Both the position numbers and the translations under genes were made by a program. A stretch of DNA of 64,000 nucleotides from a virus (lineage: Duplodnaviria > Caudoviricetes). The stretch is taken from IMG/VR virus record IMGVR_UViG_3300032310_000320, positions 10,432-74,431 of that record. The stretch is one strand, 5' to 3'. Below the pieces are notes generated by a model. That model was not told where the DNA came from, did not search any database, and saw only the letters and a list, made by a program, of their open reading frames with translations. Every line of letters begins with the position of its first letter. Positions within the stretch are counted from its first letter, which is position 1. Below are positions 3,577 to 38,009 of this stretch, in pieces.

Positions 3577-3610
3577 CATGTTATATGACGCGTTTCTAGC
3601 TTGGATTTAG
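3577..3610 (-). promoter_or_regulatory. Cassette promoter-like box P5
   Basis: CTAAATccaagctagaaacGCGTCATATAACATG; its TAA is the stop of the 3607 ORF. Confidence 0.8.
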
Positions 3611-3816
3611 TTTGTGTTTGCGTTGCCACCCTTAGGATCTTCAGCCATGTCAGCTTCCATCCACAGGTTCCATTTCTTAACCACTCTTCTGCCTTTGTAG
3701 TAAAGCACAGGCGTGGACAACTTACCTTCGTAATCAACCCACATCAAAGAATAGTCAGACGTCAATTCAACATCCACACCATCCACACTCAACAACTGAT
3801 ATTTCACGCCAGACAT
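3607..3816 (-). CDS. Hypothetical protein
   Basis: Start reset to ATG 3816 (MSGVKYQ) after GGAGGT. Confidence 0.6.
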   Translation of the reverse strand: MSGVKYQLLSVDGVDVELTSDYSLMWVDYEGKLSTPVLYYKGRRVVKKWNLWMEADMAEDPKGGNANTN

Positions 3817-3892
3817 ATCACCTCCACAAAAAAGAAACAGGCGGGGAATTGTACCCCCACCTGTAAGAAAAACATACCACTTTTTCTTAGAC

Positions 3893-6214
3893 CTAGAACG
3901 CGCAGGCACCACCAACACATGCATAATTCTGCGCCGATTCCGTTTGATCGTCATCTTCGTACTGACACAACTTGGACCAATCCACCACAGGGAAATCCTT
4001 GGAGAACATAGCGTACTGTTCTGGCGTTAATTCCTCATTGGGTGCGTGCTTGTACACACCATTATCTTTAGGAAGGAAACTGAGGCCTGTGATTTCATCG
4101 AAGTGATCATAGACCCAAGAGCCGACTTGAAACCACTCATAGGGCTCCACATAAATAGTCGCGGATACAGAATGCTCGGCCCAGTTACGTTTCCAGCAGA
4201 GCCAGTTTTCCAGTTGTTCAATGGCCGTCATGGAGTTACGTGTGAGACAACCATCAGGAGCAGTCTTGGGGAAACCAAACACGTACAAGTCATTAGGCCT
4301 TTCGGGAGAATCATGGTACGGAACGCCTTGGTCAATTAGGAACTTGGCCACAGGTGAATGCTTTGATTCTCTTACCCACCTGATTTGCCTGTCTGCGTAA
4401 CGAGGACTAACACCAGAAGCACAATCAAAGAACACGCTGCTGTCGCCTCCCGGTTTGATGCACGTGTCAGCCGCCGAACGAGAAATACCAAAGCGCCGAG
4501 TAAGGGCTTCATTGGTTTCGTTAACGACTGCTTTGAGTTTGCGGAGAAGCTCAGGTCTGTTGGGATGTGATGGATGTAGAAGAGGACAATCAGCATGTCC
4601 CGTAATATCCACACCCAGAAGCGCTTCCTCCTCACAGTTCCTACGCCACTGGTCTCTGATGTAATTGAAACGAGTACACGTGGCCTGCATGGTACCGAAG
4701 TAAGTCGCAACAAGGACTTTCTTCATGAGAGTCGTTTCAGTGTCGTCAGGTCTGGCTACAGCAATAGAAAGGTTGCAGAACTCATAGGGTCTAAGTTGAA
4801 TTTCACCGCATGGGTTAAAGCCCCAATCATGTCCCTTCTGCCTACGCTCGGGTGCCTGCATATCCATGGCTTGGCGATTGCAAATACCACGTTCGCCTGA
4901 GTAACTACGAATGAGGGACAGCCACTCATCCATGAACACGTCAGTTGAAGGTTTGGAATGGTACACGGCTGAGTTGTTGGCCATGCTGCGATGCTTGTTG
5001 TCTATGTACCACTGACCCGACTTAGCAGAACGCATTTCATGGCTGCCCAAGTCAGACAATGAAATAAGAGCTGCGCGTCGTACACCACCTACCTGCACAA
5101 TGTTGCCAATCATGCAGCAGATGTCGTGAACGTCTATGTCACTGAGATGACGGGTTTGACGGGACAATACAATCCGTCTGATGAAAGTCATTAATTCATG
5201 GAATGGCTCTGGTCCTGATGCACGTCCGCCTTTGGTCTTGAGACGTGTGCCTTTGGGCCTGACAGCCGACGTGTCGAGAATAAAGTCACGCCCCTGAAAC
5301 AGAAATTCAAGACAGTGGAACAGAGCATCACACCATCCCTCTGTGCTGTCCTCAACCACAACCGAAATGGGAAGTTCACCCGTCTGCTTGGCGATACGAG
5401 GTAACGTAGAAATTTGATCGTACTCAACAGAAAACCCCATTCCTGTACCTTGCATAAGTACATATAGCAACTCGGCGAATGAGCGCAGGTCGGTAATTGG
5501 CGCGTAGGCACAATTATACACACCCACATGACATCTTTCGAGTGCAGGTCCAGCCATCTGCACCACACGCATAGCAGGTGATGCCTCTAGCTGATACATA
5601 GATTTGGAAAGCATATCCCATTCATCTTGGGTCAGTTTGTTCTTGACCTTAGGAAGATTCTGGAACCAAGGGATGACACGGTTGAATACAGTTTCCTTCC
5701 AAGTCTCGCGGCGTTTCTCGGTGTCATTCCAGCGAGAGAACTTGCCAATAAATTGGTAATACTGTAGATCCGTCTGAAAGTGAGTACGGTCCTCGGATAC
5801 CGCCGAAGCATACGCCGTTGGAACTGGGCGATTGAGTCTGGCTCTGCGCCTGTCTTCTCTGTAGTTCTGGTAGTGTTCTGCAAACTCAGAGAGGCTTGTG
5901 ATCCAGAGTTGGGCAATGATGGTTCTTTGAATCTCTTCAACATCGATAGGACCCGTTGCGTTTCGTGTGATTAGCCCCAAAACTACATACTCAAGAATAG
6001 GATCGACATCAGGCATAGCCACGTTCTGTTCAGATACCACGTTGTTGAAACACCTGAGAAGAGCAGCTTTGATCTTCTCAATGTCAAAAGCAACAATCGA
6101 GCCATCCCTCTTGCGAACTGTCCAACCTTTAGTTGATTCAGCAATGGGTTGTTCGAGCTTCTCAAGAAACTCAGGTTGAACAGAACGTACACGGTAAGGT
6201 GAATAAGTTTGCAT
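3893..6214 (-). CDS. nrdJ: Class II (adenosylcobalamin-dependent) ribonucleotide reductase with N-terminal ATP-cone
   Basis: VRKRDGS ATP-cone; YNCAY, GTGMGFS, GGVRRAALISL, NPCGE, FCNL, IKPGG and C-terminal ACVGGAC; likely start MQTYSPY at 6214. Confidence 0.92.
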   Translation of the reverse strand: MQTYSPYRVRSVQPEFLEKLEQPIAESTKGWTVRKRDGSIVAFDIEKIKAALLRCFNNVVSEQNVAMPDVDPILEYVVLGLITRNATGPIDVEEIQRTIIAQLWITSLSEFAEHYQNYREDRRRARLNRPVPTAYASAVSEDRTHFQTDLQYYQFIGKFSRWNDTEKRRETWKETVFNRVIPWFQNLPKVKNKLTQDEWDMLSKSMYQLEASPAMRVVQMAGPALERCHVGVYNCAYAPITDLRSFAELLYVLMQGTGMGFSVEYDQISTLPRIAKQTGELPISVVVEDSTEGWCDALFHCLEFLFQGRDFILDTSAVRPKGTRLKTKGGRASGPEPFHELMTFIRRIVLSRQTRHLSDIDVHDICCMIGNIVQVGGVRRAALISLSDLGSHEMRSAKSGQWYIDNKHRSMANNSAVYHSKPSTDVFMDEWLSLIRSYSGERGICNRQAMDMQAPERRQKGHDWGFNPCGEIQLRPYEFCNLSIAVARPDDTETTLMKKVLVATYFGTMQATCTRFNYIRDQWRRNCEEEALLGVDITGHADCPLLHPSHPNRPELLRKLKAVVNETNEALTRRFGISRSAADTCIKPGGDSSVFFDCASGVSPRYADRQIRWVRESKHSPVAKFLIDQGVPYHDSPERPNDLYVFGFPKTAPDGCLTRNSMTAIEQLENWLCWKRNWAEHSVSATIYVEPYEWFQVGSWVYDHFDEITGLSFLPKDNGVYKHAPNEELTPEQYAMFSKDFPVVDWSKLCQYEDDDQTESAQNYACVGGACAF

Positions 6215-6257
6215 ACCAAGCCTCGTAGACACAGAACAAAATTGGAGTGGAGAAGCC

Positions 6258-6285
6258 ATTCTAAGGGAGACCCCCCGAGCGTCAA
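6258..6285 (-). promoter_or_regulatory. sigma70-like promoter for nrdJ
   Basis: TTGACG-N16-TAGAAT just after T6. Confidence 0.55.
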
Positions 6286-6296
6286 GCAAAGTCTCT

Positions 6297-6342
6297 GATA
6301 GCTAAAAAAAGGAACACTGGAGGGTTTAAACCCCAGTGTTCC
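6297..6342 (-). terminator. Cassette terminator T6 (bulged stem, U7, AGCTATCAGAG)
   Basis: GGAACACTG / CAGTGTTCC outer stem with an asymmetric bulge. Confidence 0.85.
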
Positions 6343-6352
6343 TCAGAAAGTT

Positions 6353-6616
6353 CTAAGCCGCATTCCATGCAGCCAGAACTTCCTTTCCGCTGTAAATTAC
6401 CCCGTCAGGGGTAACAGCGGCGACGTCCCCGCAAGGGGACATGTGAAACTTAAAGCCTAAGGCTTTAAGTTTCACAAGGATTTGCACAGACGCGCCCTCG
6501 GTAGGGCGCCCCTCGCGCTGTAGCAAAGCAGCGAAATACATCGCTGCTTTGCTGAAGTTCTTAGCCTGAAAGTGCTTTTGCACTTTCAGGCCCAAGAAGA
6601 TTTGATTGCAAAGCAT
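6353..6616 (-). CDS. Hypothetical protein, cassette 6 cargo
   Basis: GGAGG RBS; enclosed by P6 and T6. Confidence 0.75.
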   Translation of the reverse strand: MLCNQIFLGLKVQKHFQAKNFSKAAMYFAALLQREGRPTEGASVQILVKLKALGFKFHMSPCGDVAAVTPDGVIYSGKEVLAAWNAA

Positions 6617-6629
6617 TGCAATCCTCCAT

Positions 6630-6671
6630 GCGTAACATTACCCAAACAACAGCGTTTGGATAGCGTTACGC
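6630..6671 (-). other. Cassette 6 5'-leader hairpin (GCUGUU loop)
   Basis: GCGUAACG-C-UAUCCAAAC GCUGUU GUUUGGGUA-A-UGUUACGC; same loop as cassette 1 with a different stem. Confidence 0.8.
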
Positions 6672-6675
6672 GCCT

Positions 6676-6709
6676 CATGTTATATGACGCAGTTTTGCTG
6701 TGAATTTAG
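6676..6709 (-). promoter_or_regulatory. Cassette promoter-like box P6
   Basis: CTAAATtcacagcaaaactGCGTCATATAACATG. Confidence 0.8.
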
Positions 6710-6717
6710 GTTTAGCC

Positions 6718-6768
6718 AATAGCTAAAAAAAAGCCCACGAACACAGGACTAGCCTGTGTCGTGGGTTT
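6718..6768 (-). terminator. Cassette terminator T7
   Basis: Core identical to T5; U8+AGCTATT. Confidence 0.85.
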
Positions 6769-6772
6769 TGGA

Positions 6773-7153
6773 TTAGGTTATCTTAATGCCCTCCTTTTGG
6801 AGCATGTCAAGCCTTTGGTTTTCTTCCTTCATTTCTTCGGCGCTCAGTATCGTGGGCCGAACCCAGACATCGCTTACGTAGCCCTTTATGGGCCCTAAAC
6901 TTCGAGCGTCCGTAGACGCCCTCACCCACAATTCCTTTGTCAGTGCGTCAATTAGGATTACGCGACCATATGAGTCGCGTAAGTTTGTGTTGAACATCGA
7001 TCTGTTATTAATGTCTTGACACTGCGCTCGTGAGAATTTAATTCTCAATATCTCTCTGTATCGGGATGCCAACACCGTTCCGGTGCCGTGGCGGACGGGG
7101 ACAAAATTCACATTTTGAATTTTATTCAGAAAGTCTGCGATTGTACGGATCAT
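6773..7153 (-). CDS. Hypothetical protein, cassette 7 cargo
   Basis: Start reset to ATG 7153 (MIRTIAD) after AAGGAG. Confidence 0.75.
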   Translation of the reverse strand: MIRTIADFLNKIQNVNFVPVRHGTGTVLASRYREILRIKFSRAQCQDINNRSMFNTNLRDSYGRVILIDALTKELWVRASTDARSLGPIKGYVSDVWVRPTILSAEEMKEENQRLDMLQKEGIKIT

Positions 7154-7174
7154 GACGATACTCCTTCTAAAGCC

Positions 7175-7210
7175 ACACACCTCTAAACCGAAATGGCTTA
7201 GATAGCATAT
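7175..7210 (-). other. Cassette 7 5'-leader hairpin (CC-AUUUC-GG loop, bulged A)
   Basis: AUAUGCU-A-UCUAAGCC AUUUC GGUUUAGA-GGUGUGU. Confidence 0.8.
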
Positions 7211-7218
7211 GGCTTTCA

Positions 7219-7252
7219 CATGTATTATGACGCGTTTTTGCTGTGGATTTAG
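7219..7252 (-). promoter_or_regulatory. Cassette promoter-like box P7
   Basis: CTAAATccacagcaaaaacGCGTCATAATACATG; its TAA is the stop of the 7249 ORF. Confidence 0.8.
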
Positions 7253-7698
7253 GGCTTCATGATTTGAGCGAGAACAGCCCAAAGAGACATGACGAGTGTG
7301 GCTACCATGCTGGCCACCGCAGTTACGATCTGACCTTTAGTGACTGTCTTGGCAGTCTGAAAATTGTCTACGGCTTTCTTGACATCTTCCACGCACGATT
7401 TCATGTCATCAATGTCTGCTTCGATGTGTTGCAAACTAGCTTCTACTTTGGTGAGCCTGTCCATGATGGATGGCTGCCCGTTACCGTCGCGAATGATCTT
7501 GAACAATTTGCTTTGGTTGTCGTTGTAGTTCTTAATGTTGGAATCAATAAGCTTGATCTGAGTAACGACTTCTCCCAATCTTTCTTGGTTGGTAGCGACA
7601 GATGATTTAAGGTCAGTCAGATCTTTTGTGATATGCAATACGTTGTTGGACGTGGTTGTAATCAGCGAGATCATTTCCTGTGTTGCTGACGGTGCCAT
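7249..7698 (-). CDS. Coiled-coil protein with C-terminal membrane anchor
   Basis: Heptad pattern plus hydrophobic tail IVTAVASMVATLVMSLWAVL; start MAPS after GGAGG. Confidence 0.7.
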   Translation of the reverse strand: MAPSATQEMISLITTTSNNVLHITKDLTDLKSSVATNQERLGEVVTQIKLIDSNIKNYNDNQSKLFKIIRDGNGQPSIMDRLTKVEASLQHIEADIDDMKSCVEDVKKAVDNFQTAKTVTKGQIVTAVASMVATLVMSLWAVLAQIMKP

Positions 7699-7977
7699 CA
7701 GTCGTGCCTCCAAGAAAGTCCGTTGAATAGATCTCTTCGAGTTCCCCACTGCCCGAAGTACCGATGCTTGTACAAGACAAGCCGAAGAGACGCTAAAAGG
7801 CGTGCGTTCCCTTCACCACCTCGATCCCGGTCTTCTCACCATGGATCAGCCCGTGAATACGCATAAAGCGAATTCCACATCACCAACCGACGCCTGCGGT
7901 AAACCTATCCAACAGACTTAATGATTGTACCTTAGGCGCGGAGTTACACCGAATGTACGTGACGTGGTTGAAATAAA

Positions 7978-8883
7978 TTATGCGTCGTTAACAGATTCCC
8001 GCACAACATCAGGCATTTCTAATTTCGGCATTGGCGTTACGACGTGATTGATCCACTGATTGAAATCCGGCACTGAGAATTTAAATCCAGATCCATCCAC
8101 ACCCTCAACATCAATCTCAGGGTGATCCCATTTAAATTGTATAAGTGCTTTTACAATCTCTTCCTGATTGAGTTTTAACCACGTTGCCGTTTTGGTACCC
8201 AGTGCGTTGGATGCCAGTGTCCTGTAATACTCAAAAGGTTTTATGTGTCCAACGAAATGAATCCCTGCAAGAAACAAGTTTTCACGGCTGCGCAGGATAT
8301 TGACCTTGATGTGATTGAAGTTATTGGCGCAGTAATTCAACATGTCGGCAGAAGGATAATTGCGCGTGGATGCATCTAACGGAGGTAATAGGTCTCGAGG
8401 ATAAATTGCCGAAGGTGTGCAACAACGGTGAGACACAGGTAGAGAAGCATCATTGTCCGAAAAATCAACGACAAATAATTCATTGGTGTCCCTGTAATAG
8501 TACATGGCATTGGCTAAAACTGTAACACCCGTCTGACCCACAAGAAGCTGCCTGTCCATTTGAGCTGCAAGGCGTCTAGGATCACTCAGGTTGTCGTCAT
8601 CCCATATGGCGATGTAATCCCCTCTCGCCACGGTTAAGGCTTGTACGAGGCCATCTAAGACCTGCCTGATGTATGGCCTAGAGATGACTTTGATTTTGTG
8701 TCCACCACAACGAGAAGTGTTGTTGATTAGGAATGATTGTATTTGAACGGCGTGCTTGGAATCAGACGTGACAATGATCAACTCTTTGGCGGCATATGTT
8801 TGTTCACAGTAATTAAGAATGGCTCTCTGTAAGTGAGGGAACCGGGAAGGGATTGTTGTGCAGATGCAGGACACAAGACTCAT
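7978..8883 (-). CDS. GT2-family (GT-A) glycosyltransferase
   Basis: LVSCICTT N-terminus; YIAIWDDDNLSDPRRLAAQ. Confidence 0.8.
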   Translation of the reverse strand: MSLVSCICTTIPSRFPHLQRAILNYCEQTYAAKELIIVTSDSKHAVQIQSFLINNTSRCGGHKIKVISRPYIRQVLDGLVQALTVARGDYIAIWDDDNLSDPRRLAAQMDRQLLVGQTGVTVLANAMYYYRDTNELFVVDFSDNDASLPVSHRCCTPSAIYPRDLLPPLDASTRNYPSADMLNYCANNFNHIKVNILRSRENLFLAGIHFVGHIKPFEYYRTLASNALGTKTATWLKLNQEEIVKALIQFKWDHPEIDVEGVDGSGFKFSVPDFNQWINHVVTPMPKLEMPDVVRESVNDA

Positions 8884-9518
8884 AGATCTGCTCCAATAAG
8901 ATTATCAGCCATGGCCCTGATAATAGTCAGTTCTTTGGGGCAGGTGACATCAAGGGTTTCAAGTACGTTGGTGGAAACCCTCAGTTGTTTATTCATGAGC
9001 TGAGAACAGAACTCATCTTCAGAGAAATCAAACTTGGAATTGAAAGCAATGAACTGTTTCGTCCAATGTCCCGATTGCGTCAACCTTACCGCGCCACTCT
9101 GGAAATCACTAAAACCATCAAACTCACGTACGGGAAGAGATAACTGCCCTTTGTTTGCCAGAACGTTGTGAACACAATGCTCCACAACGTTAGGAGTTAT
9201 GAATGGAGAAATAGGTCTCCACACAAAATAATTGGCGTGAGATAGATGGGCTTTGATGGCGCCGCATGCTTCAAAGAATGTGGCGTTGGCAGGCACAACA
9301 TCTAAAACGACTTTGTGCCGAGGTAGAGTTTTATTCAATAAGTGCTTATTCAAACTTGCATACAAGGCACTGGATGTCACGACGGTTACTGAGTCGGTAA
9401 CGTTGCGGACATGCTTTAAGGTATTAACTGTTTTTTCTAATACCGTGGCAGCCAACGACGAGAAGAGATGCTTTTGGCATGCCAGTGAATCCAAGTAAGC
9501 AATGGATGTAGCACGCAT
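8880..9518 (-). CDS. Divergent nucleotidyl/cytidylyltransferase-like protein
   Basis: VVVTSS and RPISPFITPNVVEHCV resemble NeuA/KdsB-type RPTSP..t...i; N-terminal nucleotide-binding motif not evident. Confidence 0.45.
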   Translation of the reverse strand: MRATSIAYLDSLACQKHLFSSLAATVLEKTVNTLKHVRNVTDSVTVVTSSALYASLNKHLLNKTLPRHKVVLDVVPANATFFEACGAIKAHLSHANYFVWRPISPFITPNVVEHCVHNVLANKGQLSLPVREFDGFSDFQSGAVRLTQSGHWTKQFIAFNSKFDFSEDEFCSQLMNKQLRVSTNVLETLDVTCPKELTIIRAMADNLIGADL

Positions 9519-10312
9519 TAAAAAAGATCCCTCGCCATAATGTCTCCACGTACGTCATTGGGAAGTTCCGCAAGGATCTTATCGAGCTGAAATACGCGTT
9601 CTGGAAGTGTGGTGTTAGTCAGTCTGTGTACGGCAGGCGCATGCGACGTCGTTACCACTGTCTCCAAAAACTTTAAAACTGTATTTAATACCGAATCAAA
9701 ATCAAAGTACATGTTCTGATACTGAATGCGACAGACATCATGACACACAGCATTTATCTTGTCTCTGACGTAACTGTGTTCTCTGACAAAGTCCGTCAAT
9801 TCCTCAGAGTCCAACCAAATCTTGCTAGGTATCTTGTCAGTTACAGTGCGTGACGTTTTGTAATAAATGCTTGAAGCTTCTGATTGTTTTTTGGATACGA
9901 AACAAGCTAATGGATTGCGCTCAACATGGATGACACAGAAATCGCCTTCATTGGTGTGCTCTTTAAGTAAGTCAAACAAATCGTGCTTGCGCATCTGATC
10001 ATACGTAATGCGCACACCGACAATTGTTTCGTTGTGAAGAGGTCTGTCGAAAATGCGATTGCGCAAGAAATGATGCGCGCTATTTTCTTCTGAGTTAAAC
10101 GGTAATCCACACTGCTTAAAATAGTGAGAATAAGCTTTGGTTCTTACTTGCGCGTTGTCATGGAGTAAATGAGCGTGTGCCGCAATCGTAGGTATTGTTG
10201 CCAATGCCGTATGCAGTGGGTACGTCCCTGCCCGAACATCGCCAACAAGGACGAAGTTCAGGCATTGCGTTTTGGGAGCGAACCCATACTCTGGCTTGGC
10301 GTTGTGGGACAC
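9518..10312 (-). CDS. Sulfotransferase-like protein (Stf0-type)
   Basis: FVLVGDVRAGTYPL (5'-PSB-like loop); VIHVERNPLACFVS (3'-PB-like). Confidence 0.6.
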   Translation of the reverse strand: MSHNAKPEYGFAPKTQCLNFVLVGDVRAGTYPLHTALATIPTIAAHAHLLHDNAQVRTKAYSHYFKQCGLPFNSEENSAHHFLRNRIFDRPLHNETIVGVRITYDQMRKHDLFDLLKEHTNEGDFCVIHVERNPLACFVSKKQSEASSIYYKTSRTVTDKIPSKIWLDSEELTDFVREHSYVRDKINAVCHDVCRIQYQNMYFDFDSVLNTVLKFLETVVTTSHAPAVHRLTNTTLPERVFQLDKILAELPNDVRGDIMARDLF

Positions 10313-10319
10313 ACATACC

Positions 10320-11279
10320 TCACGACGTGAAAGATACCAAAGAAGGAGATGGCGTTAGATAAGAAGAATTTGTATTGGCGCCTTCCATTTTGTAGCCAAA
10401 GCTCACAAGGATTTCTTTCAAACGATCCGTAGCCGCTGGATCATTTAAAGAAATTGTTCCCGTGTCATGCTTGCCCTGCATAAACACCGGAGCATTAATT
10501 TTGTTCAGCCCGTGATGTACAGCAACCATGTACATGTTGTAAGGGAATGTATTGTTGGGCACCACTACAACATCATTGGCCCAATACATGCGGTAGAAAC
10601 CTTCGTCTTCAAGATCCCCATCAGGATAACGGCGATTACCATTTGGAAAAATAAGCGTGCTTGGATGGCCGCTATATGTTGTACGCATATGTGCAGATGG
10701 AGAAAATACCGTAACGTCTTTGTCTGTCTTGACTTGCAGAGCTACTTGCGTCGCCAGCATCAAAGCTTTGCCTTCTTCCGCAAACCCCATTTGATACGAC
10801 AACAAATGAGGATCCCTGTAATCATCATCATCCCATTGCGCAATCCACGGTTTAGTGGCGCGCTCAATACCCAGATTGCGCATGGCTCCGACAGACAAGT
10901 TCGGCGGAGCCATGACTTCGATTAACAACGGATGCGTAGAATCCAGCAGAGAATTACCCGTGGCGTTGATGATGATCATTTCCCTGTCGGGATATCGTTG
11001 CTGCAAGAAACGATTGACACACGCGCGGGCCATGGTTCTGCGCCGACGATCTGCAATCGGCAACAGACAGGACACGCCATAACCATAAGAATTCTTAACC
11101 GGTGTCGCCGTAACCACAGAAGGTTGTGGCACGACTGCTGTAACCTCGGTTGGAACAAGTGCAGAGTTCGATGGCAACGGCAATCCCTTAGACAACGCTT
11201 CAAGTTGTTCTTTTGACGCGTTGGGAAACATGTCGAACAAGCTTAACGTGGCTCTGCTTGAGATATTCTTACTGGTCAT
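10320..11279 (-). CDS. GT2-family glycosyltransferase
   Basis: VSCLLP...NRFLQQRYPDREMII; WIAQWDDDDY; start MTSKN after GGAG. Confidence 0.8.
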   Translation of the reverse strand: MTSKNISSRATLSLFDMFPNASKEQLEALSKGLPLPSNSALVPTEVTAVVPQPSVVTATPVKNSYGYGVSCLLPIADRRRRTMARACVNRFLQQRYPDREMIIINATGNSLLDSTHPLLIEVMAPPNLSVGAMRNLGIERATKPWIAQWDDDDYRDPHLLSYQMGFAEEGKALMLATQVALQVKTDKDVTVFSPSAHMRTTYSGHPSTLIFPNGNRRYPDGDLEDEGFYRMYWANDVVVVPNNTFPYNMYMVAVHHGLNKINAPVFMQGKHDTGTISLNDPAATDRLKEILVSFGYKMEGANTNSSYLTPSPSLVSFTS

Positions 11280-11310
11280 GGTCACTCCTAAATCCAAACA
11301 ACTTAACAGA

Positions 11311-12108
11311 TTAAACAAAAGCCTGCGCATCTCTGTCAACATACGTTGCATTAAGTTCGGGAGATTGCGGATATTGCCAGCTAGGCAAACGCTCACGAAT
11401 GGCTTTATACAAGTCGTAATAGGTGCCTGTGAAGTTTGCGTTTAGTACTTCGAGCGCCACATGTGAGAACGCACCATTGGGCCGACCATTGAAGCGCGCG
11501 TCACATGAATATTCGGCATCACCACACCCAGAGATGTGAATGAAACCTTTAACAGGTTGATCTCCCAAAGACGTAGGAGAAAACCGTTGAGCAATCTGAG
11601 CGTTGTTTAAATCCTTCTGATCCGTAAAGATGTTGGCTGGAGGTATGTATCGGATGTGAGATACATATGGCTCTGCGCCCGGTTCTCCGCCTGCAAACCT
11701 AAACACGGTACCTGAGTGACAAGCGTCTGTGATAAACACAAGTTGAGCACCGGGTTTAATTTCAACCCAACATTCAGCCAACTCATCATCTACAAGCAAA
11801 CAATCAGCAGACATGTCATATGGACACAAGCATTCATCACGTCCGTCCACTTCGTCTCCATGCGCATCGGGAACCCATGTGCCGTGACCTGCGAAGAAAA
11901 CAACGCCCTTATCTCCCGGCTGTAATGATTGCACCAACGTACGGATGCCCGTGTATATTGCGGCTTTCGTAGCAGCGGAATCTAATAGCGTTGTTGAGGC
12001 GTAACCACGTATTGTTAGAAACTTAGCCCAATCCAACGCATCATTAACACATCCAGCTAGTGGTGCAGATGCGTAAGAGTTGATACCGATGCACAATGCT
12101 TTTTTCAT
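11311..12108 (-). CDS. Caspase-family peptidase C14 (metacaspase/orthocaspase, p20 domain)
   Basis: ALCIGINSY..LAGCVNDA; FFAGHG (His); ITDACHSG (Cys); GAFS. Confidence 0.92.
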   Translation of the reverse strand: MKKALCIGINSYASAPLAGCVNDALDWAKFLTIRGYASTTLLDSAATKAAIYTGIRTLVQSLQPGDKGVVFFAGHGTWVPDAHGDEVDGRDECLCPYDMSADCLLVDDELAECWVEIKPGAQLVFITDACHSGTVFRFAGGEPGAEPYVSHIRYIPPANIFTDQKDLNNAQIAQRFSPTSLGDQPVKGFIHISGCGDAEYSCDARFNGRPNGAFSHVALEVLNANFTGTYYDLYKAIRERLPSWQYPQSPELNATYVDRDAQAFV

Positions 12109-12119: not shown

Positions 12120-12764
12120 TTAGTTATGCACAAACAAGGCAGCGTCTAATTTTCGAGTACGTTTTGCAGACGCAACCAGTGCTTCAATGTAAGCCCCATC
12201 ACCGGAAAATGAGAAATCTGTCCATGGCACTTTGGCAATTAAATCTCGAGATGCCATGAAACAACCCAAATCAATGCGGCCTTTCTTGGGAGTTGTTATG
12301 AACGGCTGCCAAAGTCTGTGACTGTGTACCATGTCGCAGTACGTGAAATCACTTTTAGTACTTACGGCTTCAGCAAGCATCCACTCAAGAAACACAGGCA
12401 TGTAGTAATTGTCGTCGTTAGTAAAAACGATGTACTCAGGTTGTTGCACGGTACTAGGTGAACCCTTGTACGTAAACGGAGCTAAAGCCTGTTCTCTTCT
12501 GTGAGGATGCCCGTGTTGTTTAGTGCGATTAGGTGTGCAGATAAAATCAATGCGCGGATCAAGGGTGATGTGATTGGCAGGCAACGCACTATCCACGGGG
12601 CCGTCATGCACGATCTTGACCGACCAGTTAGGATATGTCTGAGCCACAATTGAAGACAGGAAACACATCAACGCGTCTTGGCGCCTTGAGTCGTCGTTAA
12701 GGTACGACGCAACGACGATTCCAACTGTGGGACCATCTTTTAGTTTGGTTTTCCAGTACCGCAT
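12120..12764 (-). CDS. GT2-family glycosyltransferase
   Basis: IVAQTYPNWSVKIVHDG; VFTNDDNYY; SGDGAYI. Confidence 0.8.
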   Translation of the reverse strand: MRYWKTKLKDGPTVGIVVASYLNDDSRRQDALMCFLSSIVAQTYPNWSVKIVHDGPVDSALPANHITLDPRIDFICTPNRTKQHGHPHRREQALAPFTYKGSPSTVQQPEYIVFTNDDNYYMPVFLEWMLAEAVSTKSDFTYCDMVHSHRLWQPFITTPKKGRIDLGCFMASRDLIAKVPWTDFSFSGDGAYIEALVASAKRTRKLDAALFVHN

Positions 12765-13363
12765 CAGAGTAGCTTCTCGTAAGTAATAATCCCGTTACGG
12801 CCATCGTAGTCAGGGTAGGCAACTTCTTCCACCAATTTATAATCTTGGCGAATGCATGGAAGTAATCCCAATTCCGTCAAAGCCATGCGCGTTCCTAATA
12901 TATGAAATTCAGGTCTATCCCGAGGCCCGTGTTCTTGGTAATCGCGAAATAGGGGCAACTTATCAAACGTATCGTGCACGGCCATCTCACCGCCCTGCAT
13001 CAGTCTTCTCCCATAGTGCCCTACATCAGCCATGGTGTGATTAATACAATGACAGCCATCGACAAATACCCAATGCAAATTCAAAGGAACAAGATGGAAC
13101 GTTTCTGCTGAATCTCCCCAGATCATACGCATTTCTGGATACGGCTTTTCTTTAGCCCACAGCCCAATATCTATCGCCCAGTTTTCGACATTCGTAACAT
13201 TCAATGAGTTCAAGTAATCTTTAATCCCACGTGATGTTCTACCGTCATGCACTCCAATTTCAAGGATGCGTAGAGTTTCGCCTTTAAACCGTTCGACTAC
13301 ACGCGCTAGTGAACGCTCTAAGGCTGCGGCTTCCTCAAAACTTACAAGACCATAGACAGGCAT
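12764..13363 (-). CDS. Class I SAM-dependent methyltransferase (Methyltransf_24-like)
   Basis: ILEIGVHDGRTS; VFVDGCH; GGEMAVHD. Confidence 0.85.
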   Translation of the reverse strand: MPVYGLVSFEEAAALERSLARVVERFKGETLRILEIGVHDGRTSRGIKDYLNSLNVTNVENWAIDIGLWAKEKPYPEMRMIWGDSAETFHLVPLNLHWVFVDGCHCINHTMADVGHYGRRLMQGGEMAVHDTFDKLPLFRDYQEHGPRDRPEFHILGTRMALTELGLLPCIRQDYKLVEEVAYPDYDGRNGIITYEKLL

Positions 13364-14169
13364 TATTTAAATTCCTTAAAAGCCTCAACAACTTGGTCTG
13401 TGTAATTTACCAATTTGGCTATGCAGTGGTGAGGACACGCATGTAATAAACACACGCTAAAGCACCCGTCAATCGCAAAGACACAGGAAGGGTGCCTGTT
13501 TGCAGTGACAGATGTTCCTCCAGCGAAGAAAGCATATGGCACATCTAGAGCACCCGCCACATGTCCTAGCCCACTCTCGTAACCAATGAATGCCGAACCT
13601 GTAGCCATGAAATCAACAATGGCTTTGCAATTCGACATTTGAGCAGTATCGAGTTTCAAATCCACAAGTTCGTTTTCCCATGCCGCTTGTGTGCCGTAAT
13701 CCCATTTCTTGGTACGGCCTATTAAATGAATAACGTCCCAACCGTCTGCCATCATTCCTGCGACGACTTCTTTTAAATAGGGATATCCTTTTCGATTAGG
13801 CCAGCCAGCTTCGTCACATACTATCAACCGGCGAGGCACAGGTTTGCGAGGAAGATAAAGATTAGGTCTTACTTCAACTGCCGTTGCCGGTTTGCCTGTC
13901 AATTCTCCAAAGAAATAAACAGGTTTGTAAACTTGACTGTATACCAAGCGCCCCATGGATTCTGGCGGAGTCAATAAGCACTTATGCGGTCTTGTCCCTT
14001 GGTACTCGACGTAAGGATTTCGTTCCCAGAGATAGGCGTAAGCTGAAGACGGGCAACTCACGGCAAGCTTTAATCCCGTCAGGCGGTGATATGCTGCGGG
14101 CAATCCTGTGAATGCAGCATTGTCTCCCATGGTTTGAAGTACTTGTAATTCTTTGTCAACTTCAACCAT
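13363..14169 (-). CDS. GT9-like (heptosyltransferase-type) glycosyltransferase
   Basis: MGDN motif; FIGYESGLGHVAGALDVP. Confidence 0.75.
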   Translation of the reverse strand: MVEVDKELQVLQTMGDNAAFTGLPAAYHRLTGLKLAVSCPSSAYAYLWERNPYVEYQGTRPHKCLLTPPESMGRLVYSQVYKPVYFFGELTGKPATAVEVRPNLYLPRKPVPRRLIVCDEAGWPNRKGYPYLKEVVAGMMADGWDVIHLIGRTKKWDYGTQAAWENELVDLKLDTAQMSNCKAIVDFMATGSAFIGYESGLGHVAGALDVPYAFFAGGTSVTANRHPSCVFAIDGCFSVCLLHACPHHCIAKLVNYTDQVVEAFKEFK

Positions 14170-14986
14170 TGGTCAGAACTTCCTGTAATTTGTTAACAAT
14201 CAAATCGTTGTAGTTGGGTAATTTCTGCATGCAAGCTTTTTGGCAACTCATATTCATGCAAGGACTAACACACGGACACACGGCAAAAATACAGGAAGGG
14301 TGACGATTGATTTCGGCATTGTTTAAAGTTGAAAACATTACATAGGGAATATTTAATGCCCCTGCGACGTGCGCTAACCCACTCTCATACCCAAGATATG
14401 CGTGCGCCGTAGACATGAATTCAATTGTAGTTTTAGCATCTGCACATTGTGCTGCGTCATATACGCCGTAAACTTCGTGCCCGCTCAATTCGTTGTGGTT
14501 TTCTTGCAGTCGTTTAACACCATTGCGCAAAACAACAATGTCCCAACCACTACGTTTAAGTTCTTTTACCAACATATCCATGTAAGGATATCCACGCCGA
14601 ATAGGTCGCCCGGCTTCGTCGTTAACGATTAAACGTTTTTTAACGCGTTTGATTGGATAAAAAAGCTTAGGTCTAACGCTATCAGGATTTATTGATTTTT
14701 TTGTTAACGCTTGATATAGCCACATTGGTTTATATACAGAATTCCAAAGGTAAGCTTCATCTTTTGAAAAAACAAGCGGGTACTTAAACCAGCGTGTTGC
14801 GGTTCCTTCCCACAACACATGAGGATTGTTGTGCCAAACCGCAGCCATTTGCGAACTGCGTGCATCTAGTCCGACAGACCTTACGGCTAATTTATTACCA
14901 GTAGTATTGAAATACGCAGTTGGCACTCCGGTGTAACAGACGTTATCACCGAGTGCCTCAAGAAGAATTACACCGTCGTAAATCAT
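14162..14986 (-). CDS. GT9-like glycosyltransferase, paralog of 13363..14169
   Basis: LGDN; YLGYESGLAHVAGALNIP; shared NRHPSC.FA. Confidence 0.75.
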   Translation of the reverse strand: MIYDGVILLEALGDNVCYTGVPTAYFNTTGNKLAVRSVGLDARSSQMAAVWHNNPHVLWEGTATRWFKYPLVFSKDEAYLWNSVYKPMWLYQALTKKSINPDSVRPKLFYPIKRVKKRLIVNDEAGRPIRRGYPYMDMLVKELKRSGWDIVVLRNGVKRLQENHNELSGHEVYGVYDAAQCADAKTTIEFMSTAHAYLGYESGLAHVAGALNIPYVMFSTLNNAEINRHPSCIFAVCPCVSPCMNMSCQKACMQKLPNYNDLIVNKLQEVLTNG

Positions 14987-26954: not shown

Positions 26955-26962
26955 GGCTAACC

Positions 26963-27307: not shown

Positions 27308-27918
27308 GCCTCCACATCAAAAAAGAAGATCTGGAACAACCTTGAGGTTTCGTCGTCGTAACCAAAGTAATCCGCAGCAGCATGAATCAACTGCGCATCC
27401 CACAGCACGATACGATTGTAGACATTACCAATTAAATCCACTGTGTCCCATGCCGTTCCGTCTAAAAGTTTGTTGGCATACGTCAGATGCAGCAACGTGT
27501 TTACATCCATGTTTAAATTTCTGGCATCTGCTTCTGTGGGAGGCCGTCTAAGCTTCGTCAGCTTAGATCTTACCGTGCGCAAACCAGCTTCAAGAGGCGC
27601 ACCCGGAGTCAGAAACACGACAGCGGCATACGTCTGCATGTCAGAATGGTAAACCAGTTGATCTCCAGACGTGCAGATTTGAAACACCCCATTGTGTGGA
27701 TGCTCTGCCCAGAACGTAATGCGTTTTTGGAGAATAGCTTCAAAACGTTCTTTGATGCCCGGAAACAAGAATTGCTGGTTAGTACGCCGCCCCTTGTGAT
27801 ATTTTTCGTTGAGCTGAAACTCCTGCTGCAAAGCAAACCGGCGTACTGCATCTGGGTCTTGGTAAAAATCATCAACAACAACAACCTTAGGCGCAATTGT
27901 CGGATTCAGTTGGAACAC
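27304..27918 (-). CDS. 2OG-Fe(II) oxygenase (DUF6445-like)
   Basis: VVDDFYQDPDAVR; HSD; NRIVLWDAQLIHAA; RLFQIFF (HxD...H...R). Confidence 0.82.
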   Translation of the reverse strand: MFQLNPTIAPKVVVVDDFYQDPDAVRRFALQQEFQLNEKYHKGRRTNQQFLFPGIKERFEAILQKRITFWAEHPHNGVFQICTSGDQLVYHSDMQTYAAVVFLTPGAPLEAGLRTVRSKLTKLRRPPTEADARNLNMDVNTLLHLTYANKLLDGTAWDTVDLIGNVYNRIVLWDAQLIHAAADYFGYDDETSRLFQIFFFDVEA

Positions 27919-36141: not shown

Positions 36142-36191
36142 GATAGCTAAAAAAAAGACTAGGACACCCGGGAGTTACCCGGATGTCCTAG
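36142..36191 (-). terminator. Cassette terminator T8 (internal mismatch, U8, AGCTATCAGAG)
   Basis: CTAGGACA / TGTCCTAG outer stem, CCGGG/CCCGG inner stem. Confidence 0.85.
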
Positions 36192-36199
36192 CCTAAACA

Positions 36200-36448
36200 T
36201 TAGTTGTTCAGCATCAAGTGCTGAACTGCTTTAAGAGTTTCAATTAACAAATGGCGCGCGCCATTTGTTAATCGGCCCTCCTCGGTCCATCTAATTTGCC
36301 CGCAGGGCAAATTAGACTTGGCCGCTGAAGCAGCGGCCTTGAACAATTTCTGTTCTGAGGGCGTCATTTCAACGCCCTCTATCAGTCCTGTTACTATGTA
36401 TGCCGCCTCAATGGCGGCGTGATCCGAAACTAGAACTTCGCTGTGCAT
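36200..36448 (-). CDS. Hypothetical protein, cassette 8 cargo
   Basis: Start reset to ATG 36448 (MHSEVLV) after GGAGG. Confidence 0.7.
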   Translation of the reverse strand: MHSEVLVSDHAAIEAAYIVTGLIEGVEMTPSEQKLFKAAASAAKSNLPCGQIRWTEEGRLTNGARHLLIETLKAVQHLMLNN

Positions 36449-36506: not shown

Positions 36507-36540
36507 CATGTTATATGACGCATTTTTGCTGCGAATTTAG
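36507..36540 (-). promoter_or_regulatory. Cassette promoter-like box P8
   Basis: CTAAATtcgcagcaaaaatGCGTCATATAACATG; its TAA is the stop of the 36537 ORF. Confidence 0.8.
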
Positions 36541-36749
36541 CTGCGTGGTTTGTAGGGTGTCCAGTCTTCTGCGACTGTGCACCAACGCCGAGCATCCTTC
36601 TTAGCCATAATTACATTCGTGACTTTGCAATAATTCACGGCGCCACACTTACAGGCATCATCGAACATGCTGTAGAGATGCAATGATTCAGGCGTAGGAT
36701 CATCAGGTGCGATTACAACTTTCTTGCACACAGAACATTGAACCACCAT
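36537..36749 (-). CDS. Small Cys-rich (Zn-ribbon-like) protein
   Basis: CSVC and CKC..C; CAGGAG RBS. Confidence 0.65.
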   Translation of the reverse strand: MVVQCSVCKKVVIAPDDPTPESLHLYSMFDDACKCGAVNYCKVTNVIMAKKDARRWCTVAEDWTPYKPRS

Positions 36750-36773: not shown

Positions 36774-36801
36774 ATGGTAGTTTATTAAAACACCTGTGCA
36801 A
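36774..36801 (-). promoter_or_regulatory. sigma70-like promoter
   Basis: TTGCAC-N16-TACCAT; the -35 starts right after TAACTA of T9. Confidence 0.4.
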
Positions 36802-36847
36802 TAGTTAAAAAAAAGATCCCGTCCAAGCCCGAAGGCAAGGACGGGAC
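36800..36847 (-). terminator. Cassette terminator T9 (T2 family with compensated stem)
   Basis: CCCGTCC/GGACGGG replaces CCCACCC/GGGTGGG; same UU-GCC-UUCG-GGC-UU core; U8+AACTATT. Confidence 0.88.
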
Positions 36848-36855
36848 CTAATCGC

Positions 36856-37914
36856 TTAGGACGCAAGGATGTTGCGTTCAAAAGCAAGGTCGATCACTAA
36901 TCCTCCGGGATACCGGAGGAATGGAGTATCCCACCCCTCCGTAATTACGGGAGGCGTGAGAACAAATGTGTCCGCCTCCTCCAAGTAATTATCCTGCACG
37001 AGGCTTGTCACCTCATAGCAGTGCCCGTTGGAACTAGGAAGTTCCAACAGACCGCGCCCCGCAAGGCGGGTGGGGAACAACATGTCCCCACCCGCAAGCT
37101 GCACGCCTTGAGCGCGCAACCAATCACAAAGGACATCGACGGTATCACCGCCGATGTGGTTAATAATTTCCTGCCACCCTGCGGTGGCACGATTGTTAGT
37201 AACGTCCCAATTGGACAATGGCGGCCGTTGACCGGGCAACAGTCCGAGCGATGCCGCAACGGCGACCTCGCTAATTAAAACCCGGGGGAAATGATTCCCC
37301 TCCCAGACAGCGGCGTTCAAGAACGCCTCTATCAAATCCGCCGGAACCCGGCACATTGGCACGGGTTCCCCCTGCCCTTTTGGTTGATACGGGATAACTT
37401 TACCCTCGAAAGGGTTGATTAAGATTTGCCCCGGGGCAAACTCAATCCCTGCCTCTTTGAGGTCCGACACAAACATGGGACGCAGATCGTCCCATGTTGC
37501 GCGGACCGTTGCCGCAGTGGACATTGCAACGTCCACGGCCACCGCCGCCACGAACTGGCGTGGTGCCAGTTCGTGGTCAAGATTGACGTTTCGCCATCCC
37601 ACCGCATCGGTGGTGGCGTTCATGCCCCCAACGTAGGGGCCGAACGGCAAACAGCGAATAATCGCTGCCGTGGGCCGTGTGCCGGCGTACTGCCGGCCAT
37701 CCAAGAAGGCTGGCGGTGCGTCTTGCACCACCAGCCATTCCCCCGAGGTGACAAAGCACCTCGAGTTGACCATTTCGATGGAATCGGCCATAAGGCCGAT
37801 CCCAACATTGCCTCGGTATTTACCGAGGACAAGGTCATGGTGCCATCCGAAGATGGCCTGCGCGCCCTCGATGGCGCCATCAAGTTTAGAAACCACGGTC
37901 GCATCCATAGCCAT
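36856..37914 (-). CDS. Hypothetical protein, cassette 9 cargo (GC-rich)
   Basis: Start reset to ATG 37914 (MAMDAT) after GGAG. Confidence 0.75.
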   Translation of the reverse strand: MAMDATVVSKLDGAIEGAQAIFGWHHDLVLGKYRGNVGIGLMADSIEMVNSRCFVTSGEWLVVQDAPPAFLDGRQYAGTRPTAAIIRCLPFGPYVGGMNATTDAVGWRNVNLDHELAPRQFVAAVAVDVAMSTAATVRATWDDLRPMFVSDLKEAGIEFAPGQILINPFEGKVIPYQPKGQGEPVPMCRVPADLIEAFLNAAVWEGNHFPRVLISEVAVAASLGLLPGQRPPLSNWDVTNNRATAGWQEIINHIGGDTVDVLCDWLRAQGVQLAGGDMLFPTRLAGRGLLELPSSNGHCYEVTSLVQDNYLEEADTFVLTPPVITEGWDTPFLRYPGGLVIDLAFERNILAS

Positions 37915-37935
37915 CTTAAAGACTCCAAATGCATA

Positions 37936-37972
37936 CGACCGCTGCTCATCCGAAGTGGATAAACAACGGTCG
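37936..37972 (-). other. Cassette 9 5'-leader hairpin (16-bp stem, CC-ACUUC-GG loop)
   Basis: CGACCGUUGUUUAUCC ACUUC GGAUGAGCAGCGGUCG. Confidence 0.85.
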
Positions 37973-37974
37973 AG

Positions 37975-38009
37975 CATGTAATATGACGCGTTTCGGTCTA
38001 TCTATTTAG
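37975..38009 (-). promoter_or_regulatory. Cassette promoter-like box P9 (spacer 1 nt longer)
   Basis: CTAAATagatagaccgaaacGCGTCATATTACATG; its TAA is the stop of the 38006 ORF. Confidence 0.78.

What the first reader, a model, noticed from the sequence alone, without database searches (positions are those of the whole stretch)
3577..38009. Cassette left edge coincides exactly with upstream stop codons; CTA core at both cassette ends suggests precise insertion
In P5, P7, P8 and P9 the TAA inside CTAAAT is the in-frame stop of the upstream non-cassette gene (stops at 3607, 7249, 36537, 38006). P3 starts 1 nt after the csrA TAG. P1, P4 and P6 follow another cassette's terminator by about 7-8 nt, and P2 abuts a divergent promoter. 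The right edge (AG-CTA-T) shares the trinucleotide CTA with the left edge (CTA-AAT). Downstream resident sigma70-like promoters start at or near that tail. Inference: this is the footprint expected of elements that insert between a gene's stop and the next promoter without disrupting either. Non-autonomous hairpin-ended units moved by an HUH (IS200/605-like) or IS110-like enzyme would be candidate mechanisms.
Basis: partly seen in the sequence, partly recalled or inferred. Interest (0 to 1): 0.85.

Follow-up and report, generated by a model that had tools for sequence, protein, structure and literature searches.

The report
Recombining promoter–terminator gene cassettes in phage
Nine small phage genes each sit between a copy of the same promoter and the same kind of terminator; the "CTAAAT edge" is part of that promoter, not a transposon scar, and related phages swap, gain and lose the genes by recombining within these repeated control sequences, as already described for T4-type phages.

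Summary
The sequence facts hold. Nine minus-strand units share one layout: CTAAAT, 13-14 nt, GCGTCATAWWACATG, a leader hairpin, SD/ATG, one ORF, then a terminator ending T8-AGCTAT. The TAA inside CTAAAT is the stop codon of the upstream gene at P5, P7, P8 and P9.

- CTAAAT is a fixed-register upstream box of a two-part promoter-like motif. It is kept in a distant 219-kb relative, and 30 of 37 genome hits to the motif are Planctomycetota.
- Relatives that lack a cassette keep the box and the overlapping stop. Cassette-free sites retain one hybrid promoter or one hybrid terminator.
- Breakpoints fall in the leader, near the SD, just after the box, or inside T8-AGCTAT. They do not fall at a CTA.
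- No HUH or IS110 transposase was found in three genomes.
- Stop/box overlap (4 of 5) is about what this compact genome gives anyway (35% of gene junctions overlap).

The cassettes are nevertheless truly modular: three sites carry 6-7 different ORFan cargos across 8-10 contigs. The best explanation is homologous exchange between repeated promoter and terminator modules, like the PeSLs of T4-type phages. Here it occurs in an unrelated, uncultured ~200-kb phage that probably infects a planctomycete, which makes it a new variant of a known kind.

The parts
402..435 (-). P1 promoter-like motif (CTAAAT box + core), 8 nt after a terminator tail
925..958 (-). P2 promoter-like motif; back to back with a divergent sigma70-consensus promoter at 961-989 (+)
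1686..1719 (-). P3 promoter-like motif, 1 nt after the csrA TAG
2773..2806 (-). P4 promoter-like motif, 9 nt after a terminator tail
3577..3610 (-). P5 promoter-like motif; the box TAA (3609-3607) is the stop of ORF 3607-3954
6676..6709 (-). P6 promoter-like motif, 9 nt after a terminator tail; the whole P6 cassette is absent in contig L043
7219..7252 (-). P7 promoter-like motif; the box TAA (7251-7249) is the stop of ORF 7249-7749; 7 different cargos follow it in 8 contigs
36507..36540 (-). P8 promoter-like motif; the box TAA is the stop of ORF 36537-36749
37975..38009 (-). P9 promoter-like motif (spacer 1 nt longer); the box TAA is the stop of ORF 38006-38641; same arrangement behind the G003 ortholog
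7154..7218 (-). Example leader (P7): long 5' hairpin with a UUUCGG-type loop, SD left unpaired; all nine leaders fold likewise
88..336 (-). cargo c1, 82 aa, no family, absent from G001 and G003
493..858 (-). cargo c2, 121 aa, no family, absent from G001 and G003; P2 site has 7 cargo types in 10 contigs
1344..1622 (-). cargo c3, 92 aa; G001 has a 65%-identical allele
2503..2706 (-). cargo c4, 67 aa, absent from G001 and G003
2869..3510 (-). cargo c5, 213 aa, ORFan in the viral collection; P5 site has 6 cargo types in 8 contigs
6353..6616 (-). cargo c6, 87 aa; 78% allele in G001; the cassette is missing in L043
6773..7153 (-). cargo c7, 126 aa, ORFan; replaced by an unrelated ORF in G001
36200..36448 (-). 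cargo c8, 82 aa; diverged alleles in relatives
36856..37914 (-). cargo c9, 352 aa; 39-49% allele in G001
41..88 (-). terminator after c1 (tail AGCTGT)
444..491 (-). terminator after c2, tail T8-AGCTAT
1293..1341 (-). terminator after c3, T-runs on both sides (bidirectional; also ends the + strand gene 1044-1283)
2454..2502 (-). terminator after c4; its tail overlaps a sigma70-like -35 (TTGACT-17-TAAACT)
2816..2861 (-). terminator after c5, tail T8-AGCTAT
6298..6344 (-). terminator after c6, followed by the sigma70-like promoter of the ribonucleotide reductase gene (TTGACG-16-TAGAAT)
6719..6765 (-). terminator after c7; its T8-AGCTAT is the crossover site of the P6-cassette indel
36143..36190 (-). 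terminator after c8, tail T8-AGCTAT
36801..36851 (-). terminator after c9 (tail AACTAT)
51914..53446 (-). UvsX-like recombinase gene, a candidate phage enzyme for the exchanges (inference only)
   Evidence: phrog_97, E 3e-16

Best explanation
CTAAAT is the upstream box, at the -35 position, of a two-part promoter: CTAAAT, 13-14 nt, then GCGTCA(T/C)A(A/T)(A/T)AC(A/T)TG. The motif matches one found mainly in Planctomycetota genomes, so it is probably read by the RNA polymerase of a planctomycete host.

Each unit is a self-contained expression module: promoter, 5' stabilising hairpin, SD, one small ORF, and a strong terminator ending T8-AGCTAT. In this compact genome the gene in front of such a promoter ends as close to it as possible. 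The invariant TAA inside the box is often used as that gene's stop codon.

The promoter-leader (about 100 nt) and the terminator (about 50 nt) are repeated many times in direct orientation. Homologous recombination between copies, within one genome or between co-infecting relatives, deletes, inserts and replaces the ORFs between them. A cassette-free site therefore keeps one hybrid promoter or one hybrid terminator. This is the PeSL type of modular shuffling.

Shown: the anatomy, the conservation of the motif, the indels and their junctions, and the hyperplastic sites. Inferred: promoter activity, the transcription start, and which polymerase and which recombinase act.
For: Motif:
- There are 8 matches at up to 2 mismatches in the 74-kb contig and none for the reversed control; P9 has a spacer 1 nt longer.
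- Searches with the core alone bring CTAAAT in fixed register at every family member in G001 and G003. In the viral collection 10 of 15 hits have it, one has the variant CTAAAA, and the rest look like chance hits inside unrelated sequence.
- G003 shares only 26-64% protein identity with the window. It has 4 copies, which drive one gene or several, and the ortholog of ORF 38006-38641 again stops on the box TAA.
- 30 of 37 genome hits are Planctomycetota. These genomes hold 2-12 clustered copies each, against about 0 for the control.
- In Blastopirellula marina three copies flank a large serine recombinase gene. One ORF there stops on a box TAA and another stops 1 nt before a box.

Exchange between relatives:
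- P7: window and G001 are 99% identical through the box, core and leader. They are unrelated from the SD to the stop codon, then identical again from the terminator on.
- L098 versus G001: a ~450-bp unit (leader, 95-aa ORF, terminator, next promoter) is present or absent. The junction lies in the shared leader pentamer TACGC between two promoter copies, and the box and overlapping stop are untouched.
- L043 versus window: the P6 cassette (~420 bp) is absent. The junction lies inside T8-AGCTAT, with the stem of one terminator joined to the downstream flank of the other.
- P5: identity drops just after CTAAATCCA and returns in the T-run.
- Cargo diversity is 7 types in 8 contigs at P7, 6 in 8 at P5, and 7 in 10 at P2. 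P6, P8 and P9 keep one family each.
- The cargos are ORFans.

Other:
- All leaders fold into 5' hairpins.
- Junction overlap is common in this genome.
- No Y1 or IS110 transposase was found.
- A UvsX-like recombinase is encoded in the window.
- The published precedent is PMC2839356 and PMC4122927.
Against: - There are no transcript 5' ends. Promoter function and the start site are inferred from position, orientation and the two-part architecture.
- The box is unlike TTGACA, and the simple sigma70 scan does not call these sites.
- No phage sigma factor or T7-type polymerase was detected. The reader of the motif is unknown.
T8-AGCTAT is only 14 nt, which is short for RecA-type exchange.
- The tail hexamer is invariant while the terminator stems covary. 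This is not explained by termination alone.
- Only four events were dissected.
- Group II introns that abut ...ACWTGA in bacterial contigs would sit at +1 if CATAAT were the -10 element.
Confidence: 0.68

Rival explanations
1. The cassettes are non-autonomous transposable units. Their ends are CTAAAT and AGCTAT, and they are inserted at a CTA target by an HUH (IS200/IS605-type) or IS110-type enzyme.
For: - The units have hairpins near both ends and conserved terminal hexamers.
- In the P5 comparison and the L043 indel, divergence starts or stops close to those hexamers.
Against: - Sites lacking a cassette keep the box at the stop codon, or keep a terminator.
- Other junctions lie in the leader or at the SD.
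- The box is conserved with the core in distant phages and in bacterial genomes, where it precedes ordinary genes and multi-gene units.
- The hairpins are a canonical terminator with a T-run and a 5' leader stem-loop.
- No Y1_Tnp or DEDD_Tnp_IS110 was found in G000, G001 or G003, while the controls rang.
- The shared CTA is expected by chance about 1 time in 5.
Confidence: 0.03
2. The motifs are ordinary regulatory signals and nothing more. Cargo differences arise from the general mosaicism of these phages, through illegitimate or gene-level recombination, and the repeats have no special role as crossover sites.
For: - Window and G001 are mosaic everywhere, with protein identity from 39 to 100% and whole blocks missing, such as 12764-14986.
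- P6, P8 and P9 cargos evolve as diverging alleles.
- In G003 the promoter drives normal operons.
Against: - All four dissected junction pairs lie inside the repeated promoter-leader or terminator sequence, not in coding DNA.
- Two indels remove exactly one repeat period, leaving a hybrid repeat.
- Cargo turnover is concentrated at three promoter sites whose flanks are 94-100% identical.
Confidence: 0.14
3. The invariant T8-AGCTAT and CTAAAT(CC) are sites for a dedicated phage recombinase or nuclease. This would be an integron-like or homing-like cassette exchange system with no recognised enzyme family.
For: - The tail hexamer is invariant across 10 terminators with six or more different stems, and it is present in G001 and once in G003.
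- Two junctions map to these short invariant blocks.
- Many window proteins have no family.
Against: - Other junctions lie elsewhere in the repeats.
- In some copies the tail overlaps sigma70-like -35 elements, which could explain part of its constraint.
- No candidate enzyme was identified.
Confidence: 0.07
4. The conserved 35-nt block is not a promoter. It is a transcribed RNA signal, such as a processing or antitermination site or a binding site for the phage CsrA, placed at the head of each unit.
For: - Conservation extends well beyond what sigma70 promoters need, and a further block (T/A)TAGCyAT lies 10-15 nt downstream.
- Group II introns that abut ACWTGA would need a transcribed 5' exon.
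- A csrA homolog is encoded next to P3.
Against: - Three copies lie 8-9 nt after strong terminators. Others, in bacteria, lie at the start of intergenic regions or after divergent genes, where no upstream transcript is expected.
- The two-box layout with fixed 13-14 nt spacing is that of a promoter.
- The leader hairpins begin only after the block.
Confidence: 0.08

Closest known systems
PeSLs (promoter-early stem-loops) of T4-type phages (Arbiol et al. 2010, PMC2839356; Comeau et al. 2014, PMC4122927)
   Same: - Repeated composite promoter/terminator motifs of ~100 nt that begin at the stop codon of the upstream gene and end at the SD and start codon of the next.
- They are concentrated in front of ORFans in hyperplastic regions.
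- Insertions, deletions and replacements between close relatives are bounded by the motifs.
- Loss of a cassette leaves one chimeric motif.
   Different: - The phage is not T4-like (family A polymerase at ~23% identity to any isolate, no close cultured relative).
- The promoter is not the E. coli sigma70 consensus but a CTAAAT/GCGTCATAAT motif shared with Planctomycetota.
- Promoter and terminator are separate modules at the two ends of the ORF, and are contiguous at only 3 of 9 sites.
- Each unit has a long 5' leader hairpin and an invariant AGCTAT tail.
- Mini-circles were not tested.
Morons of lambdoid phages (promoter-gene-terminator units between core genes; from general knowledge)
   Same: An autonomous transcription unit with its own promoter and terminator, carrying an accessory gene and sitting between conserved genes without disturbing them.
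   Different: - Here nine units share one stereotyped promoter, leader and terminator family. The repeats themselves act as exchange points.
- Classical morons are individually different and are defined in temperate phages.
IS200/IS605-derived non-autonomous elements (PATEs) and IS110 elements
   Same: Short units with hairpins near both ends that lie in intergenic DNA.
   Different: - No transposase.
- The hairpins are a terminator and an mRNA leader.
- Empty sites keep part of the 'element'.
- Junctions are not fixed.
- The 'left end' is a promoter box conserved across a bacterial phylum.

Membership tests
PeSL-type regulatory cassettes | Repeated composite motif spanning upstream stop codon, promoter boxes, stem-loop, SD and start codon | tested here: met
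   Nine copies run from the box (with stop overlap at 4) to an ATG 93-100 nt later. A terminator stem-loop lies 8-9 nt upstream at P1, P4 and P6.
PeSL-type regulatory cassettes | Promoter identical to the E. coli sigma70 consensus (early promoter) | tested here: not met
   The -35-position box is CTAAAT. The sigma70 scan does not call the nine sites, although it does call neighbouring TTGACx promoters.
PeSL-type regulatory cassettes | Preferentially upstream of ORFans in hyperplastic regions | tested here: met
   - The cargos have no Pfam or PHROG family.
- Six of nine are absent from G001 and G003.
- No relatives of c5 or c7 were found in the viral collection.
- There are 6-7 cargo types per site at P2, P5 and P7.
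PeSL-type regulatory cassettes | Indels and replacements between close relatives bounded by the motifs, leaving a chimeric motif | tested here: met
PeSL-type regulatory cassettes | Excised mini-circles carrying one ORF and one chimeric motif | not testable with these tools
Contig L097 joins the P2 upstream flank to P7 downstream sequence, but the unique flank is only 55 nt at a contig end, so it may be an assembly artefact.
PeSL-type regulatory cassettes | Host genome is a T4-type myovirus | tested here: not met
   The DNA polymerase is family A, about 23% identical to the nearest isolates. There is no DNA-level relative among 50,697 phage records.
IS200/IS605 (HUH) elements and derivatives | Y1 (HUH) transposase available | tested here: not met
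   PF01797 is absent from G000, G001 and G003, and the controls rang. A host copy cannot be excluded.
IS200/IS605 (HUH) elements and derivatives | Whole element present or absent at a fixed target, with the empty site lacking both ends | tested here: not met
   Empty sites keep the promoter box with the overlapping stop, or keep a terminator. Junctions lie in the leader or in T8-AGCTAT.
IS110 family | DEDD transposase | tested here: not met
   PF01548 is absent from G000, G001 and G003.
Moron (autonomous promoter-gene-terminator unit in a phage) | Own promoter and own terminator flanking an accessory gene between conserved genes | tested here: inconclusive
   The anatomy fits. Promoter and terminator activity were not measured.

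The most novel reading that the evidence does not exclude
T8-AGCTAT and CTAAAT(CC) are more than transcription signals. They would be the recombination sites of a dedicated, so far unrecognised phage enzyme, making this a cassette-capture platform comparable to an integron but built from promoter and terminator modules, in phages of Planctomycetota.
Probability: 0.07. Interest if true: 0.8.

Novelty: new variant of a known kind. Interest (0 to 1): 0.45.

Why it matters
- It extends promoter/terminator-mediated modular shuffling beyond the T4 superfamily, the only group in which I found it described (PMC2839356, PMC4122927), to an unrelated, uncultured ~200-kb phage lineage. It does so with nucleotide-level junctions taken from natural populations.
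- It shows that a stop codon buried in a promoter box is a packing effect, not an insertion scar.
- As a by-product it defines a long conserved promoter-like motif shared by these phages and Planctomycetota genomes. That gives a host prediction for a phage group with no cultured member, and a candidate strong promoter for a phylum with few genetic tools.

Tried and rejected
- DNA search of window 1-8000 against 50,697 phage records found only two short ribonucleotide reductase matches. One call failed on a length limit.
- Pfam and PHROGs gave nothing for the cargos or for most flanking genes.
- Relatives of cargos c5 and c7 were sought in the viral collection and none was found, so I could not show one cargo sitting at two genomic positions. 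The exception is the ambiguous contig L097.
- T7-type RNA polymerase (PF00940) and Sigma70_r2 were absent from G000, G001 and G003. The PF00940 control rang nowhere, so that result is uninformative.
- Rfam over window 1-8000 gave only sub-threshold noise.
- A literature search for a described planctomycete promoter consensus found nothing relevant.
- From memory, the motif resembles sigma28 (TAAA-N15-GCCGATAA) and sigma32 (CTTGAAA-N13/14-CCCCATnT) promoters in layout. This was not tested and is not claimed.
- A resemblance of the leader to boxA/nut sites was considered and left untested.

Full report
**Setting**

The window is bases 10432-74431 of a 74.4-kb IMG/VR virus contig that CheckV rates 36% complete, so the genome is about 200 kb. 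Almost all genes are on the minus strand. It encodes:
- a family A DNA polymerase, helicases and a UvsX-like recombinase;
- a ribonucleotide reductase, a CsrA homolog and glycosyltransferases.

No cultured phage is close. The polymerase is about 23% identical to the nearest isolates.

**Observation**

Nine minus-strand copies share one motif: CTAAAT, 9-10 variable nt, then AAAYGCGTCATAWWACATG. The contig holds 8 matches at up to 2 mismatches and none for the reversed control; P9 has a spacer one nt longer.

Each copy has the same layout:
- the motif is followed by a leader that folds into a long 5' hairpin and leaves the SD free;
- an ATG lies 93-100 nt after the box;
- one ORF of 67-352 aa follows;
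- 33-43 nt after the stop, a terminator ends in T7-8 A(G/A)CT(A/G)T.

The stop-codon claims are correct. The TAA inside the box ends ORFs 3607-3954, 7249-7749, 36537-36749 and 38006-38641, and csrA ends one nt before P3. P1, P4 and P6 lie 8-9 nt after a tail. P2 is back to back with a consensus sigma70 promoter for a + strand gene.

**Is it more than chance?**

- The hexamer alone is not enriched.
- A shared trinucleotide between two hexamers is expected about one time in five.
- In this window 28 of 79 same-strand gene junctions overlap and 20 more are within 12 nt. Four overlaps in five gene-abutting promoters is therefore only marginally above background (p about 0.05).
- Over three genomes the independent stop-to-box offsets are +1 four times, then -3, -4, -7 and -12.

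The pattern is tight packing against a motif that happens to contain an invariant TAA.

**What CTAAAT is**

Two related genomes were found through the motif. G001 is 186 kb; its reductase is 98-99% identical and its ends overlap by 614 bp at 95% identity. G003 is 219 kb and 98% complete, with 26-64% protein identity to the window.

- Searching with the core alone, every family member in G001 and G003 has CTAAAT in the same register.
- In the viral collection, 10 of 15 core hits have it, one has the variant CTAAAA, and the rest look like chance hits.
- G003 has four copies. These precede a two-gene unit that ends in T10-AGCTAT, a multi-gene operon and a 460-aa gene. The ortholog of ORF 38006-38641 (40% identity) again stops on the box TAA.
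- A scan of species-representative genomes gave 37 hits, 30 of them labelled Planctomycetota (Gemmata, Zavarzinella, Blastopirellula, Rhodopirellula, Novipirellula, Gimesia and others). Five of those genomes hold 2-12 clustered copies at up to 3 mismatches, against about 0 for the control.
- In Blastopirellula marina, three copies flank a large serine recombinase gene next to a host sulfatase gene. This looks like an integrated element. One ORF there ends on the box TAA and another ends 1 nt before a box.

The box is therefore an integral part of a two-part promoter-like motif of planctomycete type, sitting where a -35 element would be, 17 bp before CATAAT/CATATT/CATATA. No phage sigma factor or T7-type polymerase was detected, so the host enzyme is the likely reader. 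This is inference; no transcript ends are available.

**Are the cassettes mobile, and how?**

They are modular. Six of nine cargos are absent from G001 and G003, while flanking genes are 94-100% identical to G001. Four events could be read at nucleotide level.

1. P7. Window and G001 are 99% identical through the box, core and leader. They are unrelated from the SD to the stop, and identical again from the terminator on.
2. P5. Identity drops just after CTAAATCCA and returns in the T-run. The window has two cassettes where G001 has one 35-aa ORF.
3. L098 versus G001. A unit of about 450 bp (leader, 95-aa ORF, terminator, next promoter) is present or absent. The junction lies in the shared TACGC of the leader, between two promoter copies. 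The box and the stop of the upstream gene are untouched.
4. L043 versus window. The P6 cassette (about 420 bp) is missing. The junction lies inside T8-AGCTAT, joining the stem of the P7 terminator to the flank of the P6 terminator.

Across viral and metagenome contigs:
- P7 carries 7 cargo types in 8 contigs;
- P5 carries 6 in 8;
- P2 carries 7 in 10;
- P6, P8 and P9 keep one diverging family each.

So empty sites exist, but they keep a hybrid promoter or a hybrid terminator, and the junctions vary within the repeats. That is what homologous exchange between direct repeats gives. It is not what insertion at a CTA target gives. No HUH or IS110 transposase was found in the three genomes.

**Comparison with what is known**

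This matches the PeSL model in T4-type phages. PeSLs are composite motifs that run from the upstream stop codon through the promoter and stem-loop to the SD and start. They are concentrated before ORFans, and recombination between them deletes, inserts or replaces genes and leaves a chimeric motif (PMC2839356; PMC4122927).

The differences here:
- the phage lineage is unrelated to T4;
- the promoter is not sigma70 consensus;
- promoter and terminator are separate modules;
- each unit has a long leader hairpin and an invariant tail hexamer.

Contig L097 joins the P2 upstream flank to P7 downstream sequence. That is the joint expected of a circle or a duplication, but the unique flank is only 55 nt at a contig end, so I do not rely on it.

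**Unexplained**

- AGCTAT is invariant while the terminator stems covary.
- A further conserved block (T/A)TAGCyAT lies 10-15 nt into the leaders of phage and bacterial copies.
- Group II introns abut ...ACWTGA in five unrelated bacterial contexts.

These leave room for a dedicated recombination or RNA-level role. I rate each of those readings below 10%.

**Verdict**

The insertion-scar and transposase interpretation is not supported. The best explanation (0.68) is a promoter box used as a stop codon in a compact genome, together with PeSL-like recombinational shuffling of promoter-ORF-terminator modules. This is a new variant of a known kind, of moderate interest.

Noticed in passing
genome hits L136-L172; window promoter sites: The promoter-like motif is found almost only in Planctomycetota genomes: 30 of 37 hits, with 2-12 clustered copies per genome. 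This predicts a planctomycete host for this uncultured ~200-kb phage group.
   Followed up: partly
L054:2207-2800; also L055/L150, L081, L102/L166, L119: Group II introns begin (GTGCGACCAGATAG...) directly after ...ACWTGA of the motif in five unrelated bacterial contexts. L054 holds an ORF-less intron of ~555 nt with domains V/VI at 2723-2797, followed by a normal leader, SD and ATG. The motif may be a homing target for an intron lineage.
   Followed up: partly
L173 (Blastopirellula marina G008:C2:758000-776000), motif copies at L173 7348, 8844 and 11431: Three motif copies flank a 683-aa large serine recombinase gene beside a host sulfatase gene, which looks like an integrated element. ORF 11099-11434 stops on the box TAA, and ORF 8165-8842 stops 1 nt before a box.
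   Followed up: partly
L097 (4119-nt metagenome contig), first 55 nt of its reverse complement: The P2 upstream flank is joined through a promoter copy to the P7 cargo and downstream genes. This is the joint expected of a 6-kb circle or a tandem duplication, but it could also be an assembly error across the repeat.
   Followed up: partly
window 41-54, 444-457, 1293-1306, 2454-2467, 2816-2829, 6298-6310, 6719-6732, 36143-36156, 36801-36814: The terminator tail A(G/A)CT(A/G)T after the T-run is nearly invariant although the stems differ (six or more stem sequences with compensating changes). At 2454 the last T of the tail begins a sigma70-like -35 (TTGACT), and at 6285 a TTGACG promoter follows.
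   Followed up: partly
window 961-1283 (+); L014 11104-13189: A + strand gene for a 79-aa protein with a signal-peptide-like N-terminus is driven by a consensus sigma70 promoter and ends at a bidirectional terminator. G001 has two extra + strand genes (332 and 361 aa, 2.1 kb) in the same unit.
   Followed up: partly
G001 contig ends (L014 end, L015 start): The two ends of the 186-kb relative overlap by 614 bp at 95% identity, inside the ribonucleotide reductase gene. The genome is therefore circular or circularly permuted, and was assembled from two strain variants.
   Followed up: yes
window 7978-11396, 12764-14986, 19535-27918: Outside the cassettes the window and G001 are strongly mosaic. 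The glycosyltransferase block is only 53-62% identical, genes at 12764-14986 are absent from G001, and several large genes at 19535-27918 are absent or partial.
   Followed up: no
G001 184450-184557 (-); L098 ~10850-10960: A 35-aa hydrophobic peptide gene (MEFELFIGAV...) is the sole P5 cargo in G001 and the second cassette in L098 and L072. It is followed by two hairpins.
   Followed up: no
G003 72650-73205 versus window 11278-11311: G003 has a motif copy, a 49-aa ORF, a terminator and a second small ORF between the orthologs of window genes 11311-12108 and 10320-11278. The window has only a 30-nt intergenic spacer there. In G003 the upstream stop is 9 nt before the box.
   Followed up: partly
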